Assembly (NCBI GenBank): GCA_964549815.1
Contig: CAZJVO010000002.1
Location: forward strand, 1-36,116
Source: an uncultured Dehalococcoidales bacterium
GTDB lineage: Bacteria > Chloroflexota > Dehalococcoidia > Dehalococcoidales > UBA5627
Length of the DNA stretch: 36,116 nt
Direction of reading: 5' to 3'
Part shown: one piece after another, positions 2,355-36,116 of the stretch
How the letters are laid out: each line of letters begins with the position of its first letter
Position numbering within the stretch: position 1 is the first letter of the stretch
Notes under the pieces: model-generated
What the model was told of the DNA's origin: nothing
The model's input: only the letters and a program-made list of their open reading frames with translations
Databases searched by the model: none
Made by a program: the position numbers and the translations under genes

Positions 2355-2393
2355 AAATCCCCTTTGATTCCCCTTTTCCAAAGTGGAAGAATA
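2355..2393 (+). repeat. repeat family R1 core, copy 1 (caaatcccctttgattccccttttccaaagtggaagaat)
   Basis: Nearly identical 39-mers at 33888-33926 and 35477-35515; an inverted diverged copy lies at 32384-32424. Contains an imperfect hairpin (attcccctt / aagtggaagaat). Confidence 0.85.
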
Positions 2394-32242: not shown

Positions 32243-32261
32243 GAATAAAAAGACTTGCGCC

Positions 32262-32304
32262 AAAATCCCTCTCAATCTCCCTTTGCAAAGGGAGAAATGA
32301 CTAT
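32262..32304 (-). repeat. repeat family R2, inverted copy (contains the perfect palindrome tctccctttg/caaagggaga)
   Basis: The reverse complement matches 35598-35642 almost base for base. Confidence 0.85.
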
Positions 32305-32340
32305 CATGTCAGGCTATTTATATATTCCATAAAATTAATA

Positions 32341-32426
32341 CCCTTCGATTACTCTAAAAACCCCTTTACGTTTAAAATTGGACTTATTCTCCCACTTTGT
32401 AAAAGGGGGAATAAGGGGGATTTTAC
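32341..32426 (-). repeat. repeat family R1 (long form), inverted copy
   Basis: The reverse complement aligns with 35477-35565 (aaatcccc..ttcccc..caaagtgg.agaat....ttaaacgtaaag). Stem positions are changed but still pair (cttattc/gaataag versus gattc/gaatc). Confidence 0.75.
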
Positions 32427-32568: not shown

Positions 32569-33450
32569 ATGACAAATATAAACAAAGTAGCCATCATCGG
32601 CGGTTCGGGGAAGATGGGACAATGGTTTGCCCGATTGCTTTTGCAGGAAGGCAAAGGCGTAACCATTATCGGCAGGAACAGGGATAAACTGGAAGAAGTA
32701 AAAAACAGGCTGGATGTTGCCGTCAGTACCAAAATCAGTGATATAAAGCTGGCGGATGCCGTGATTATCTCGGTGCCGGTAGATTGCTTCGAAGACATAG
32801 TAAAGCAAATGAGCCCTTACACCTATTTCGGGCAGCTCATTTTCGATATTACATCGGTCAAATCGGTGCCCGTCGAGCTGATGCACCGCTATATTACGAA
32901 CGGACAGATTCTGGGTACACATCCGGTATTCGGTCCCGGCGCTCGCAGCCTTACCAACCAGAACTTCGTGCTGACGCCGACGACGCCGCAGGAGGCAAAA
33001 CTGGCACAGGGGTTAGTGGATTTCCTGCGAAAAAGAGAAGCCAGAGTGCAGGTTATGACACCTGCCGAACACGACAGTATGATGTCGGTTATACTGGGGC
33101 TGGCTCATTTCATCGCTATCGTCTCGGCGGATAGCCTTGCCGGGCTGGAAAAGCTGAAAGAAATGGAATCCATCGGAGGCATCACATATAAAGTGTTGTG
33201 GACACTGGTGGAAAGCGTAATCTCGGAAGACCCCGATTTATATGCTTCGCTCCAGATGAACCTGCCGCAGCTACCGGATTTCCAACAGCAATTCCTTAAA
33301 AATACTGCCGAATGGACAGAGCTTGTGAAGAATAAAGACAGGGAGGAGTTCGTTCGCAGGATGAAAGCCATCCATGACCAGCTGGCAGCCAAAAGTGCCG
33401 ACTTCGGCAAAGCCTACGATAATATGTATAAAATAGCAGAGGGGCTTTAG
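32569..33450 (+). CDS. tyrA: prephenate dehydrogenase
   Basis: Rossmann loop VAIIGGSGKMGQWF, HPVFGP motif and a helical C-terminal domain. The ATG at 32569 (MTNINK) is preferred. The ORF-track start at 32509 adds 20 non-conserved-looking residues, and neither start has a good SD. Confidence 0.88.
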   Translation: MTNINKVAIIGGSGKMGQWFARLLLQEGKGVTIIGRNRDKLEEVKNRLDVAVSTKISDIKLADAVIISVPVDCFEDIVKQMSPYTYFGQLIFDITSVKSVPVELMHRYITNGQILGTHPVFGPGARSLTNQNFVLTPTTPQEAKLAQGLVDFLRKREARVQVMTPAEHDSMMSVILGLAHFIAIVSADSLAGLEKLKEMESIGGITYKVLWTLVESVISEDPDLYASLQMNLPQLPDFQQQFLKNTAEWTELVKNKDREEFVRRMKAIHDQLAAKSADFGKAYDNMYKIAEGL

Positions 33451-33470
33451 AGCCCCTCTCGTTATTATTG
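33438..33470 (+). terminator. hairpin terminator at the end of the aro operon (tyrA stop codon in the loop)
   Basis: agaggggct-ttag-agcccctct is a 9-bp perfect stem followed by cgttattattg. It has U-rich flanks on both strands, so it may act bidirectionally. Confidence 0.55.
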
Positions 33471-33510
33471 TCATGCTGGAAGCCACAAAGGGTGGCTGAA
33501 GCATCCGGGG
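33471..33510 (+). repeat. structured element H, copy C (tcATGCT-GGA-AGCCAC-AAAGG-GTGGCT-GA-AGCATccgggg)
   Basis: Same flanks, outer stem, internal loop and apical loop as the inverted copies at 34030-34068 and 34796-34834. The inner stem is fully swapped but still complementary. Confidence 0.75.
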
Positions 33511-33534
33511 ATGGGTGGCAAACTGTAAAAGAGG

Positions 33535-33887: not shown

Positions 33888-33926
33888 CAAATCCCCTTTG
33901 ATTCCCCTTTTCCAAAGCGGAAGAAT
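33888..33926 (+). repeat. repeat family R1 core, copy 2
   Basis: caaatcccctttgattccccttttccaaagcggaagaat differs by one base from 2355-2393. Confidence 0.85.
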
Positions 33927-34014
33927 AAGTTGGGTAAGTTTGCCGTTCTGGAGGGAGTACATTCGCTTCGCTCAGTATAAACTTCACGAACGAAGAATCC
34001 GTGGGATAAGGGAC

Positions 34015-34170
34015 TAGTTACCTTCCCCTCCCAGGATGCTTCATTCGTCCTTCACGAATTCAGCATGACAACTATAGAAATCCTCCCTAAAACAAAAAAC
34101 CCACGGATAATATTAACCACGGGTCTTGTTTTACTTCTCTTGTTGCCAAAAGAACTTCGTTAATATCAAT
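34015..34170. repeat. ~155-bp direct repeat, copy A (contains H element 34030-34068 and terminator-like hairpin 34094-34124)
   Basis: Differs from copy B (34781-34936) at about five positions by my hand alignment. Its right half is also paralogous to the 23S rRNA 3' flank (35686-35770). Confidence 0.9.
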
Positions 34171-34265
34171 CCTGAAACAGAGCGAGTCAAAACTATTCGC
34201 AGAATATGTCATAGGGATAACAATTTCTCTGCTTTATGCTATGATATAGAAGCGGAGGTACAGGA

Positions 34266-34472
34266 ATGAAAACAACTCAATCAAAAGCCGAAATCTATTT
34301 GATGGCTCTGGAATCACTCTCAGCAGCAGACAAAAAGAAGATTATCGCCCACCTACTAGAAGATGAAGAACTGAGGGAAGATATACTGGATGTCGCCCTT
34401 ATCCAGCAGCGAAAGGGAGAACCCGCACGTCCTTTCAACCAGTTTCTGGCAGAAAAAGAAGAGGCTAGGTAG
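34266..34472 (+). CDS. putative antitoxin paired with the RelE/ParE-family toxin
   Basis: 68-aa acidic ORF, GGAGG 7 nt upstream, ending 5 nt before the toxin start. I do not recognise the family from sequence alone. Confidence 0.6.
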   Translation: MKTTQSKAEIYLMALESLSAADKKKIIAHLLEDEELREDILDVALIQQRKGEPARPFNQFLAEKEEAR

Positions 34473-34477
34473 CCAGC

Positions 34478-34732
34478 TTGAGCTACGAAATCCACATTAT
34501 CCCTTCTGCGGAAAAAGAATTTGACAGACTGGGAGGCACAGTCCAAAAACGCATTATTAAAAAGATTTCGTCTCTTGAGGAGAACCCGCGCCCAAAAGGG
34601 GCACACAAGCTCAGCGGGCGCGAGGAATACCGGATAAGGGTCGGAGTCTACCGCATTCTATACATAATCAATGACGAAAATCATGTAATTACCATTGTTG
34701 CCATCGGGCATCGGCGCGAAATATATAATTAG
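34478..34732 (+). CDS. relE: type II toxin, RelE/ParE (RelE/StbE-like) family mRNA interferase
   Basis: 84 aa. The pattern ...ENPRPKGAHKLSGREEYRIRVGVYRILYIINDENHVITIVAIGHRREIY is the characteristic RelE/StbE C-terminal block. TTG start. Confidence 0.85.
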   Translation: MSYEIHIIPSAEKEFDRLGGTVQKRIIKKISSLEENPRPKGAHKLSGREEYRIRVGVYRILYIINDENHVITIVAIGHRREIYN

Positions 34733-34780
34733 GTCTCACTCTACTCCCCCCAAATAATAAACTAAAAATCCGGGGATGAT

Positions 34781-34936
34781 TAATTACCTTCCCCTCCCAG
34801 GATGCTTCATTCGTCCTTCACGAATTCAGCATGACAACTATAGAAATCCTCCCTAAAACAAAAAACCCGCGGATAATATTAACCACGGGTCTTGTTTTAC
34901 TTCTCTTGTTGTCCAAATAACTTCGTTAATATCAAT
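34781..34936. repeat. ~155-bp direct repeat, copy B (contains H element 34796-34834)
   Basis: Near-identical to copy A. It ends exactly at the hicA stop codon (34936-34938). Confidence 0.9.
34855..34890 (-). terminator. rho-independent terminator downstream of hicA (inside repeat copy B)
   Basis: The minus strand reads acccgtgg-ttaatattat-ccgcgggt followed by ttttttgtttt. Confidence 0.7.
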
Positions 34937-35163
34937 TACTGTAATAGCTTGATAAAATCTTTCTTTTCTACCTCGACATCCTTCAAGATTTTCATCAATA
35001 ATCCCTTCCCTACCGCTTCCCCTTTATGAACAGGGACTACAGTTGCCCGTCCGTCCGGATGTTTAAGGTAAATATGACTACCTTTTTGCCTGAATATCTG
35101 GAAACCCAGTTTACTCAAAGCCTTTATAATCTGTTCGCCTTCCAGAGACGGTAACTTCGTCAT
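34936..35163 (-). CDS. hicA: HicA-family toxin (YcfA-like mRNA interferase)
   Basis: 75 aa. LSKLGFQIFRQKGSHIYLKHPDGRATVVPVHKGEAVGKGLLMKILKD is the canonical HicA dsRBD-like pattern. ATGA overlap with the upstream hicB. Confidence 0.88.
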   Translation of the reverse strand: MTKLPSLEGEQIIKALSKLGFQIFRQKGSHIYLKHPDGRATVVPVHKGEAVGKGLLMKILKDVEVEKKDFIKLLQ

Positions 35164-35372
35164 ACCGCTATTCTCTGTACTCCTATAAATTGTAACTCCC
35201 CGCCTTCAACTTCACCCTCCACTTCCAGGCACAGTGAAACAACCTCTTTCATGCGTTCCATCAGTTCATCAAGAGACTTAGCTTGCGTATGACACCCTTT
35301 TAACTGAGGAACAGTGCCGATAAAATATCCATCCTCGTCCTTTTCGATAATGACTGTAAAATCCCTCTTCAC
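35160..35372 (-). CDS. hicB: HicB-like antitoxin (UPF0150 fold, short form without an obvious DNA-binding domain)
   Basis: 70 aa. FTVIIEKDEDGYFIGTVPQLKGCHTQAKSLDELMERMKEV matches the HicB N-terminal domain. GTG start 7 nt after GGAGG. The antitoxin-first order is reversed relative to classic hicAB. Confidence 0.82.
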   Translation of the reverse strand: MKRDFTVIIEKDEDGYFIGTVPQLKGCHTQAKSLDELMERMKEVVSLCLEVEGEVEGGELQFIGVQRIAV

Positions 35373-35414
35373 ACACCACCTCCAGATATTAAAGTTATTC
35401 CTTATATATGAGTA

Positions 35415-35443
35415 AGTCTATCTTAGTACAAACACTTTTTCAA
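35415..35443 (-). promoter_or_regulatory. candidate hicBA promoter
   Basis: The minus strand reads TTGAAA (35443-35438), a 17-nt spacer, then TAGACT (35420-35415). Motif only. Confidence 0.35.
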
Positions 35444-35476
35444 CCGTTTATTCAAAAACAGTTATAAATATTCACA

Positions 35477-35565
35477 CAAATCCCCTTTGATTCCCCTTTC
35501 CCAAAGTGGAAGAATCCGTCATGTATTAAACGTAAAGAAGACTATCAAATTATTCGCAAGGCAAT
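35477..35565 (+). repeat. repeat family R1 (long form), copy 3
   Basis: The core is identical in pattern to 2355-2393 and 33888-33926. The extension (..attaaacgtaaag..) matches inverted 32341-32383. Confidence 0.8.
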
Positions 35566-35597
35566 TGCCTTTCATAATAAATAACCAGACCAAACAT

Positions 35598-35642
35598 CAT
35601 AGTCATTTCTCCCTTTGACAAAGGGAGATTGAGAGGGATTTT
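35598..35642 (+). repeat. repeat family R2, direct copy
   Basis: catagtcatttctccctttgacaaagggagattgagagggatttt is the reverse complement of 32262-32304, with a 1-nt insertion in the palindrome centre. Confidence 0.85.
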
Positions 35643-35692
35643 AGCTATAAATCGACTATGACTCACATAAAAAGTGAATTTCCCCGAAAACC

Positions 35693-35723
35693 AAAAAACC
35701 CACGGACAAATGTACCTATGGGT
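35693..35723 (-). terminator. rho-independent terminator ~55 nt downstream of the 23S rRNA 3' end (repeat copy C, 35686-35770)
   Basis: The minus strand reads acccatagg-tacatttgt-ccgtgggt followed by tttttt. It is paralogous to the hairpins in copies A and B. Confidence 0.7.
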
Positions 35724-35776
35724 CTTGTTTTACTTCTCTTGTTGTCAAAAGAACTTAGCTAATATCAACTCTGAAG

Positions 35777-36116
<340 letters not shown>

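What the first reader, a model, noticed from the sequence alone, without database searches (positions are those of the whole stretch)
34015..35777. Two toxin-antitoxin cassettes bracketed by copies of the 23S rRNA 3'-flank, suggesting a tandem insertion hotspot
Three paralogous copies of the sequence immediately downstream of the 23S rRNA gene are present. Copy C (35686-35770) is the genuine 23S trailer plus terminator. Copy B (34781-34936) ends exactly at the hicA stop codon. Copy A (34015-34170) lies upstream of the RelE-type pair. A and B are ~155 bp long and differ at only about five positions. All three share ...aaaaaaccc.cgg[loop]cc..gggtcttgttttacttctcttgttg.caaa..aactt.g.taatatcaa. After the shared block, copy A continues cctgaaacag..gtcaa, which resembles ctctgaagcaggtcaag, the last nucleotides of the 23S gene next to copy C. 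So a few bases of the rRNA 3' end appear to have been duplicated as well. The layout is A - relBE-like - B - hicA/hicB - (R1, R2 repeats) - C - 23S. This is what serial site-specific integration into one attachment site produces. In Dehalococcoides, genomic islands integrate in tandem at the 3' end of ssrA, each bounded by a direct repeat of that end. No integrase is visible in this window, so the mechanism is inference.
Basis: partly seen in the sequence, partly recalled or inferred. Interest (0 to 1): 0.66.

Follow-up and report, generated by a model that had tools for sequence, protein, structure and literature searches.

The report
Toxin-antitoxin cassette array behind 23S rRNA
Right after a stand-alone 23S ribosomal RNA gene of an uncultured Dehalococcoidales bacterium, two toxin-antitoxin gene pairs sit between three copies of the rRNA gene's own tail and terminator; related genomes carry none, one or several such small cassettes at the same spot, so this is a real gene-insertion hotspot whose recombination enzyme has not been found.

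Summary
Three direct copies lie at A 34012-34180, B 34778-34946 and C 35676-35779. A and B are 96% identical over 159 nt, and all three share an ~85-nt core. On the minus strand this core ("T") is the 3' external spacer of a solitary 23S gene: the 3' strand of the pre-23S processing stem, a small hairpin and a covariation-supported intrinsic terminator. The cassettes are hicBA and a ParE/RelE-type pair.

- an empty site with one T;
- hicBA with two T;
- hicBA plus relBE with three T;
- toxin-deleted remnants;
- other cargo (AIPR, restriction-modification remnants, small membrane ORFs).

T was found only at this locus in the sequence I could search. In two more distant clades the distal copies start inside the last 9-14 nt of 23S, whatever lies upstream. 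That fixed boundary, the constant orientation and the empty sites favour site-specific integration at the 23S 3' end. No integrase was found. The variable 3' extent of the repeats, hairpin swaps and deletions show homologous recombination and gene conversion reshaping the array. Verdict: a real hotspot, a new variant of stable-RNA-gene integration sites, with the mechanism only partly resolved.

The parts
35777..36116 (-). 3' 340 nt of a solitary 23S rRNA gene (the window ends inside it); no 5S, 16S or tRNA nearby
   Evidence: Rfam LSU_rRNA_bacteria, 325 bits, model positions 2590-2925; no tRNA; relatives L002, L082 and L084 show a complete 23S with no adjacent rRNA genes
35676..35779 (-). Copy C: the genuine 23S 3' external spacer. 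It holds the 3' strand of the processing stem (TGCTTCAGAGTTGATATTAGC...), a small hairpin, and a terminator hairpin (stem arms 35699-35705 and 35715-35722) followed by a T-run
   Evidence: leader-trailer pairing shown in relatives by cofold; hairpin covariation
35594..35645 (.). R2, a REP-like palindromic element; an inverted copy lies at 32259-32309
35477..35515 (.). R1, a REP-like element; further copies at 2355-2392 and 33888-33926 and an inverted copy at 32382-32423. It is a dispersed family, unlike T
35373..35445 (-). P: the hicBA promoter, 5'UTR and RBS (TTGAAA-17 nt-TAGACT). It is native to this hicBA family, because it is also present upstream of hicB at unrelated loci (L086, L090)
35160..35372 (-). 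hicB antitoxin (70 aa)
   Evidence: Pfam HicB_lk_antitox, E=5.7e-7
34936..35163 (-). hicA toxin (75 aa); its stop codon abuts copy B
   Evidence: Pfam HicA_toxin, E=9e-20
34778..34946 (-). Copy B: T with a type II terminator hairpin (stem arms 34866-34872 and 34883-34889) plus about 75 nt of 'ext'. It lies between the convergent hicBA and relBE pairs
34478..34732 (+). ParE/RelE-family toxin (84 aa)
   Evidence: Pfam ParE_toxin, E=2.5e-14
34266..34472 (+). Putative antitoxin (68 aa, no Pfam hit); a promoter-like site lies at 34217-34245
   Evidence: conserved with the toxin in L085, L094 and L095, and kept alone in L036
34012..34190 (-). Copy A: T (type II hairpin, stem arms 34100-34106 and 34117-34123) plus ext. 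It continues directly into the ancestral flank toward glrx. Its 5' end reaches the trailer start and possibly the last few 23S bases
   Evidence: its ext and distal flank are orthologous to the single-copy sites of L002 and L004
33535..33771 (-). Glutaredoxin-like gene: the conserved anchor on the far side of the variable region
   Evidence: Pfam Glutaredoxin; conserved in relatives

Best explanation
The repeated unit T is the 3' end and 3' external spacer of a single-copy, stand-alone 23S rRNA gene. It consists of the 3' strand of the pre-23S processing stem, a small hairpin and a Rho-independent terminator. The stretch between this terminator and the glutaredoxin gene is an accessory-gene hotspot in a group of uncultured Dehalococcoidia.

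Small units of the form [T copy + cargo] have been added in series at the 23S 3' end. Each addition leaves another direct copy of T. The cargo is mostly addictive or defence modules: hicBA, relBE/parE-type, AIPR and restriction-modification remnants.

I think the insertions arose by site-specific recombination at an attachment site overlapping the last ~10 nt of 23S and the start of the trailer. The recombinase would be encoded elsewhere or since lost, and the incoming unit would supply a replacement 3' spacer so that the rRNA stays functional. This step is inferred.

After insertion, the array is demonstrably remodelled by homologous recombination, gene conversion and deletion between T copies. 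These processes remove cassettes (empty sites), swap terminator hairpins and delete toxins first. The extra T copies also serve as terminators and insulators between cassettes.
For: Shown:
- T is the trailer plus terminator, and it pairs with the 23S leader. The hairpin has two compensatory pairs across 14 variants and needs G-U pairs on the 23S-sense strand.
- The locus varies among relatives: an empty site in L002; hicBA with two T in L007, L084, L091, L092 and L099; three T in the window and L085; other cargo in L081-83, L085 and L100.
- T occurs only at this locus.
- In clades 2 and 3 every distal copy starts at (GG)GCTTGACC, which is the last 9-14 nt of 23S, even though the upstream flanks are unrelated.
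- All copies share the 23S orientation whatever the orientation of the cargo genes (window; L104).
- In clade 3 the T variant goes with the downstream cargo: X->y against X->w.
- In L100 the repeat identity is limited to a 32-43-nt core and the two copies have different terminators, as expected for attL and attR.
- Remodelling is visible. Window copy A carries a type II hairpin where L094 (95% identical overall) carries type III. L104 has a hybrid hairpin. L036 and L095 have lost hicA, or hicA and relE, together with the middle T, while keeping the antitoxins. L082/83 look like L084 after deletion of hicBA between repeats.
Against: - No tyrosine or serine recombinase lies in the 36-kb window, in any cassette, or within 6-9 kb upstream of the 23S gene in L002, L082 and L084. 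L084 has only an IS-type rve transposase.
- No excised circle and no element carrying T was seen; the only viral-contig hit, to a looser trailer-start pattern, is a chance match.
- The 3' extent of the repeat differs between genomes and includes locally adjacent host sequence (ext in the window, the hicBA promoter in L084). A fixed att core does not predict this.
- In clade 1 the hicA|T junction sits ~11 nt after the 23S end rather than inside the gene.
- hicBA divergence tracks 23S and housekeeping-gene divergence, which suggests long vertical residence rather than recent mobility.
- Most comparison loci are short metagenomic contigs.
Confidence: 0.45

Rival explanations
1. Homologous recombination and duplication only. 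One or a few illegitimate events once duplicated the 23S trailer and terminator next to a captured toxin-antitoxin module. Since then RecA-dependent unequal crossing-over, gene conversion and exchange with related strains, using 23S and T as portable homology, have generated all gains, losses and rearrangements. No dedicated recombinase or att site exists.
For: - Repeat extents differ between genomes and include the neighbouring host sequence.
- Copies within a genome share lineage-specific features, which indicates concerted evolution.
- Hairpin-only swaps and a hybrid hairpin are present.
- Deletions end in or near T.
- An invariant 25-nt block 5' of the hairpin could serve as a minimal homology segment.
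- No integrase was found.
Against: - This model does not explain why at least four independent distal copies, each with an unrelated upstream flank and spread over two further clades, begin within a few nt of the same position inside the 23S 3' end.
- It does not explain why L100 shares only a 32-43-nt core.
- It does not explain why even a 140-nt non-coding spacer (X in L104) is neatly bounded by complete T units.
Confidence: 0.3
2. Decayed genomic islands. Full-size integrative elements with their own integrases once inserted at the 23S 3' end. Genome streamlining then deleted everything except the addictive toxin-antitoxin or restriction-modification modules and the att repeats. The array is therefore a fossil, not an active cassette system.
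For: - The cargo is dominated by addiction and defence modules.
- Decay starts with the toxin.
- hicBA divergence is consistent with vertical descent.
- Dehalococcoides ssrA islands include integrase-less members (PMC3146451).
Against: - Repeated independent decay down to units of 0.2-0.9 kb, while keeping complete T units at every boundary, is improbable.
- Near-identical T copies within a genome (96-100%) argue for recent recombination.
- Very close relatives (95-98% identical) differ in cargo: L085 has AIPR after copy A, and L094 has a different hairpin.
Confidence: 0.15
3. An RNA-level function. The extra T copies are kept because they carry the 3' strand of the 23S processing stem. They would act as decoys or partners for the pre-23S leader, or yield a small RNA derived from the 3' spacer. 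This would couple toxin-antitoxin expression to ribosome biogenesis.
For: - T pairs extensively with the 23S leader.
- A 25-nt block is invariant in the three window copies and in nearly all relatives' copies (three distal copies carry 1-2 substitutions).
- In L100 the distal repeat is essentially just the stem strand.
Against: - In distal copies the stem-strand part accumulates substitutions: TTAGCG becomes TTAACG in A and B, and L007 and L036 carry stronger changes. The terminator part stays intact.
- T keeps the 23S orientation even next to oppositely oriented cassettes, so it is not part of their mRNAs.
- L112 has hicBA at the site with no second T.
Confidence: 0.05

Closest known systems
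Dehalococcoides ssrA genomic islands (McMurdie et al. 2011, PMC3146451)
   Same: Tandem accessory units lie downstream of a single-copy stable-RNA gene in the same bacterial class. Each unit is bounded by a direct repeat of that gene's 3' end. The number of units varies between strains, and some units lack integration genes.
   Different: There the repeat is a fixed 20 bp from inside ssrA, the islands are many kb long, and most carry a conserved integration module with the serine recombinase DsiB. Here the target is the 23S rRNA 3' end, and the repeat is 32-165 nt, mostly the external spacer and terminator. The units are 0.2-0.9 kb, and no integrase was found.
Integron cassette arrays and integrase-less attC clusters (CALINs)
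   Same: Both are arrays of very small cassettes, often toxin-antitoxin pairs and sometimes inverted with their own promoters. The cassettes are separated by structured repeats in one orientation and do not encode their own recombinase.
   Different: No R''/R' core-site pair (RYYYAAC...GTTRRRY) is present. The hairpin has 7-8 bp arms and behaves as an RNA terminator. The repeat is a copy of the neighbouring rRNA gene's tail, and no intI was found. The integron features are from my own knowledge.
tRNA- and tmRNA-targeting integrative elements in general
   Same: A direct repeat starts inside the 3' end of the RNA gene, and the incoming unit supplies a replacement 3' end so that the gene stays intact.
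   Different: I found no report of an rRNA 3' end or external spacer as the target in the searched literature. The 'elements' here are minimal cassettes.
Recombinase-less modules that use host Xer recombinases (IMEX elements at dif; pdif modules on Acinetobacter plasmids)
   Same: These are small modules, often toxin-antitoxin pairs, that lack their own recombinase, are bounded by recombination sites and can form arrays.
   Different: No dif-like 28-bp site was identified in T, although I did not test this rigorously. pdif sites flank modules in inverted orientation, whereas T copies are direct. This comparison rests on my own knowledge.

Membership tests
Site-specific integrative islands at stable-RNA gene 3' ends (ssrA-GI / tRNA type) | The distal boundary is a direct repeat of the target gene's 3' end | tested here: met
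   Distal copies in L100 and L104 start at (GG)GCTTGACC, the last 9-14 nt of 23S. Window copy A reaches the trailer start, with only weak similarity to the last 23S bases.
Site-specific integrative islands at stable-RNA gene 3' ends (ssrA-GI / tRNA type) | Presence/absence polymorphism, with single-copy empty sites in relatives | tested here: met
   L002 is empty; L007, L084, L091 and L099 hold one cassette; the window and L085 hold two; other loci hold other cargo.
Site-specific integrative islands at stable-RNA gene 3' ends (ssrA-GI / tRNA type) | An element-encoded integrase next to one att site | tested here: not met
   No recombinase lies in any cassette, in the 36-kb window, or in the 6-9 kb beyond the 23S gene in L002, L082 and L084.
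Site-specific integrative islands at stable-RNA gene 3' ends (ssrA-GI / tRNA type) | A fixed repeat core or crossover position | tested here: inconclusive
   The 5' boundary is nearly constant, but the 3' extent ranges from 32 to 165 nt.
Site-specific integrative islands at stable-RNA gene 3' ends (ssrA-GI / tRNA type) | An excised circular form with a recombined att site | not testable with these tools
   This needs reads or PCR. The permuted cassette order in L104 against L105 may be an assembly effect.
Integron / CALIN cassette array | attC sites with paired R''(RYYYAAC) and R'(GTTRRRY) boxes and a long imperfect palindrome | tested here: not met
   No R''/R' pair 45-150 nt apart on either strand of 33900-35800.
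Integron / CALIN cassette array | intI integrase and attI next to the array | tested here: not met
   The array abuts a 23S rRNA gene, and no integrase lies in the flanks.
Type II toxin-antitoxin modules | A small adjacent gene pair with recognised toxin and antitoxin domains | tested here: met
   HicA, HicB-like and ParE/RelE toxin hits exceed the Pfam cut-offs. The 68-aa partner of the ParE/RelE toxin has no Pfam hit but is conserved next to it.
Rho-independent (intrinsic) terminator | A G+C-rich hairpin followed by a U-run, with pairing conserved by compensatory change | tested here: met
   RNAalifold on 14 variants gives two pairs with double-sided compensatory changes. The 23S-sense strand folds far better than the opposite strand. 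The simple scanner missed the hairpin because its loop is 10 nt.
Dispersed REP/MITE-type repeat | Copies scattered through the genome, unrelated to one locus | tested here: not met
   T appears only at the 23S-glrx locus in the window, in about 1 Mb of related loci and in the metagenome scan. By contrast R1 is dispersed. No whole genome could be scanned.
Xer-dependent modules (IMEX / pdif) | 28-bp XerC/XerD binding sites flanking the module | not tested
   T was only inspected by eye. The dif sequence of these organisms is unknown.

The most novel reading that the evidence does not exclude
Some Dehalococcoidia have an active, integron-like cassette platform anchored on their single 23S rRNA gene. 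In it, small mobile units each carry a replacement copy of the 23S 3' end and external spacer (processing-stem strand plus terminator) as their attachment site. A recombinase encoded elsewhere in the genome inserts, excises and reorders them.
Probability: 0.2. Interest if true: 0.75.

Novelty: new variant of a known kind. Interest (0 to 1): 0.55.

Why it matters
Integration at the 3' ends of tRNA and tmRNA genes is textbook. An rRNA gene as the anchor is not, because rRNA genes are usually multi-copy and organised in operons. In Dehalococcoidia the 23S gene is single-copy and stands alone, which apparently makes its 3' end usable as an insertion site.

If the site-specific reading holds, every inserted unit must bring a working processing-stem strand and terminator for the host's ribosomal RNA. 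That would be an unusual constraint linking mobile DNA to ribosome biogenesis.

There are practical consequences too. These repeats break metagenomic assemblies right at the 23S gene, since most relatives' contigs end inside T. The locus is also a compact, PCR-addressable marker of strain-level variation and of toxin-antitoxin and defence-gene turnover in an uncultured group.

Tried and rejected
1. Dispersed terminator or REP family: rejected. T occurs only at this locus, whereas R1 and R2 are the dispersed elements.

2. Uninformative genome scan. My first genome-contig scan used an exact 22-mer that differs by one base (GACCC against GGCCC) from even the nearest relatives. Its zero result therefore says nothing about dispersal.

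3. attC/integron sites: no core-site pairs.

4. Phage or plasmid attP carrying T: two scans of IMG/VR with T-core patterns found nothing. A looser trailer-start pattern hit L103 once, inside a 956-aa ORF with no flank similarity, so it is a chance match.

5. Integrase in the neighbourhood: none. L084 has only an IS-type rve transposase 4 kb upstream of the 23S gene.

6. 'Copy C has a recombinant hairpin'. I first read it as a type I/type II hybrid. L085's C copy then showed a fully paired third allele (CCCATGGA/TCCGTGGG), so it is ordinary compensatory evolution.

7. Crossover in the terminator loop, treating the hairpin arms as recombinase-binding sites: rejected. In L104 three of four hairpins are perfect in the array, and they would all be mismatched in excised circles.

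8. Assembly artefact for the window: rejected, because independent contigs reproduce the arrangement. It cannot be excluded for the permuted cassette order in L104 against L105, because segment X occurs twice.

9. T travels with hicBA: rejected. hicBA homologues with the same promoter sit at unrelated loci without flanking repeats.

10. Literature searches for rRNA 3' ends as integration sites or for toxin-antitoxin arrays in Dehalococcoidia found nothing specific.
Full report
**Observation**

The three copies exist as described. The repeat finder gives A 34012-34180, B 34778-34946 and C 35676-35779. A and B are 96% identical over 159 nt, and all three share an ~85-104-nt core (alignment). The invariant 25-mer CAACAAGAGAAGTAAAACAAGACCC occurs three times in the window and never in 100 shuffles.

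Rfam places the 3' end of a bacterial 23S rRNA on the minus strand at 35777. C is therefore the gene's real trailer, and all three copies have the orientation of the 23S gene. The window holds no 5S rRNA and no tRNA.

The cassettes are:
- hicB/hicA, at 35372-34936 on the minus strand;
- a 68-aa putative antitoxin plus a ParE/RelE-family toxin, at 34266-34732 on the plus strand.

Pfam supports HicA, HicB-like and ParE_toxin.

**What the repeat is**

Read on the minus strand, the core ("T") has three parts. First comes TTGATATTAGC..., then a small hairpin, then a hairpin flanked by an A-tract and a T-run.

In relatives that carry the whole gene (L082, L002), the first ~40 nt pair with the 23S 5' leader to form the long pre-23S processing stem.

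The terminal hairpin occurs in at least three alleles:
- type I, CCCATAGA/TCTATGGG;
- type II, CCCGTGG/CCGCGGG;
- type III, CCCATGGA/TCCGTGGG.

These differ by compensatory changes. RNAalifold on 14 variants finds two pairs changed on both sides. The 23S-sense strand folds much more stably than the opposite strand, because several pairs are G-U. T is thus the 3' external spacer plus an intrinsic terminator.

A and B carry ~75 nt more ("ext"). This is simply the sequence that follows the terminator in the single-copy sites of relatives L002 and L004.

**Who it is and what relatives look like**

The neighbouring prephenate dehydrogenase places the window in uncultured Dehalococcoidales; the best relative is 89% identical at the protein level. 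The order 23S - T - variable region - glutaredoxin - aro genes is shared by a clade of MAGs. The variable region differs between them:

| Locus | Content between 23S and glrx |
|---|---|
| L002 (376-kb contig) | one T, no cassette |
| L007, L091, L092, L099, L084 (L084: 1.5-Mb contig, probably long-read by its name) | T - hicBA - T |
| Window; L085 (98% identical) | hicBA and relBE, with three T |
| L094 (95% identical) | A - relBE - ext, then a different hairpin |
| L095-97 | hicA and the middle T lost |
| L036 | both toxins and the middle T lost, antitoxin genes fused tail to tail |
| L082, L083 | small membrane ORFs |
| L081 | a 225-aa ORF |
| L085, after a damaged copy A | an AIPR abortive-infection gene |

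In a tree of the neighbouring gene, each hicBA-bearing genome sits beside a genome with no detected cassette; only L002 is demonstrably empty, because the L004 and L008 contigs end inside T. Gain and loss therefore appear recurrent.

**Not dispersed**

A degenerate 24-mer of the core hit only three JGI metagenome contigs, all at this locus. A relaxed search of all fetched loci (about 1 Mb) found T only here. No viral contig credibly carries it: two T-core patterns found nothing, and one looser hit is a chance match inside a phage ORF. My first genome-collection scan was uninformative, because its exact 22-mer differs by one base from the relatives' T.

**Wider distribution**

The same hicBA family sits behind the 23S gene in more distant clades.

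- L100-102 (23S 3' end 85% identical). The layout is 23S - DR1 - own terminator - hicBA - DR2 - a different terminator - restriction-modification remnants. The direct repeat (DR) is a 32-43-nt core, GGGCTTGACCTGCTTCAGARTTGATATTAGT, and it includes the last bases of the mature 23S.
- L104-111. At least four T copies follow the 23S gene. They separate a 140-nt REP-like segment, an inverted hicBA pair and a forward hicBA pair.
- L112. hicBA lies at the site with no second T.

hicBA homologues with the same promoter also occur at unrelated loci without flanking repeats. The promoter therefore belongs to hicBA, and T belongs to the site.

**Evidence bearing on mechanism**

Four observations favour a site-specific origin:
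- At least four distal copies with unrelated upstream flanks begin within a few nucleotides of (GG)GCTTGACC, inside the 23S 3' end.
- T always has the 23S orientation, whatever the orientation of the cargo genes.
- In L104-111 the T variant goes with the downstream cargo: X->y against X->w. The unit is therefore [T + cargo], as if each insert brings a replacement 3' spacer.
- In L100 identity is confined to a short core and the two copies have different terminators, like attL and attR.

Five observations count against it, or point to homologous recombination:
- No integrase lies in the window, the cassettes or the flanks of relatives.
- The 3' extent of the repeat varies and includes local host sequence. 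It is T+ext in the window. In L084 it is T plus the hicBA promoter, reaching right up to the start codon of a small membrane ORF.
- Copies within a genome share lineage-specific features.
- Hairpin-only swaps separate close relatives, and L104 has one hybrid hairpin.
- hicBA divergence parallels 23S divergence.

Deletions clearly use or remove T. L082/83 look like L084 after loss of hicBA between repeats. L036 and L095 lost their toxins first, which is the route by which an addictive module can be lost without harm.

**Conclusion**

'Serial site-specific integration' is the best explanation for how the units arose, and I put it at about 0.45. The enzyme is missing, however, and much of the present structure reflects homologous recombination and gene conversion. 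A recombination-only model remains a serious rival at about 0.3.

The nearest precedent is the set of ssrA islands of Dehalococcoides (PMC3146451). The differences are the 23S 3' end as target, repeats that consist mostly of external spacer and terminator, sub-kilobase cassettes and no integration module. I found no description of such an array in the searched literature.

I rate it a new variant of a known kind, of moderate interest.

Noticed in passing
window 2355-2392, 32382-32423 (inverted), 33888-33926, 35477-35515; also 32259-32309 and 35594-35645: Two REP-like palindromic elements recur in intergenic regions up to 31 kb apart: R1 (AAATCCCCTTTGATTCCCCTTT.CCAAAG.GGAAGAAT) and R2 (AAAATCCCTCTCAATCTCCCTTTG.CAAAGGGAGA). 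They also occur in relatives. They form a dispersed family, distinct from T.
   Followed up: partly
window 35777-36116; L002 11793-14755; L082 8561-11523; L084 6667-9627: The 23S rRNA gene stands alone, with no 16S or 5S within several kb on either side. It has its own leader-trailer processing stem and its own terminator.
   Followed up: partly
L084 10296-10567; L083 140-350; L112 ~1000-1193: A small membrane ORF of 42-61 aa (MAE(E/G)..KK...LIGLGVG...) recurs downstream of the 23S gene. In L084 and L082/83 it is driven by a duplicated copy of the hicBA promoter, 5'UTR and RBS, identical right up to the start codon. In L112 it has its own promoter. How the hicBA promoter came to be duplicated in front of it is unexplained.
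   Followed up: partly
L036 2133-2459; L095 83-893: Remnants without toxins. In L036, relB and hicB converge and overlap after loss of relE, hicA and the middle T. In L095, relBE is fused directly to a truncated hicB. This fits toxin-first decay of addictive modules.
   Followed up: yes
L085 1790-3153; L100 1329-3462: Other defence-type cargo lies at the same site. L085 has an AIPR (abortive infection) gene that starts right after a copy A lacking its 3' hairpin arm. L100 has a BsaWI-type restriction endonuclease fragment plus an N6/N4 DNA methylase.
   Followed up: partly
L104, L105, L107, L108, L110 (whole contigs): Across several samples of one JGI study, the same cassettes appear in different orders after the 23S gene (23S-X-Y-Z against 23S-Z-X-Y-Z), and they have different exits (X->W, Z->V). 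This could be real shuffling or amplification. It could also be an assembly effect, because segment X with its flanking T copies is itself repeated.
   Followed up: partly
window 33470-33525 and 34016-34052 / 34791-34818: The 'ext' part of copies A and B is an imperfect inverted repeat of a sequence just downstream of the prephenate dehydrogenase gene (GGCTGAAGCATCCGGGGATGGG / CCCCTCCCAGGATGCTTCA). It is another REP-like family, and L002 carries a ~43-nt insertion in it.
   Followed up: no
window 33438-33459: A perfect 9-bp hairpin (AGAGGGGCT...AGCCCCTCT) lies between the convergent prephenate dehydrogenase and glutaredoxin genes. It looks like a bidirectional terminator.
   Followed up: no
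relatives' contig ends (L003, L004, L008, L036, L081, L001): Many MAG contigs stop inside T or at the 23S 3' end. The repeat and the rRNA gene systematically break short-read assemblies at this locus, which may hide such arrays in MAG collections.
   Followed up: no
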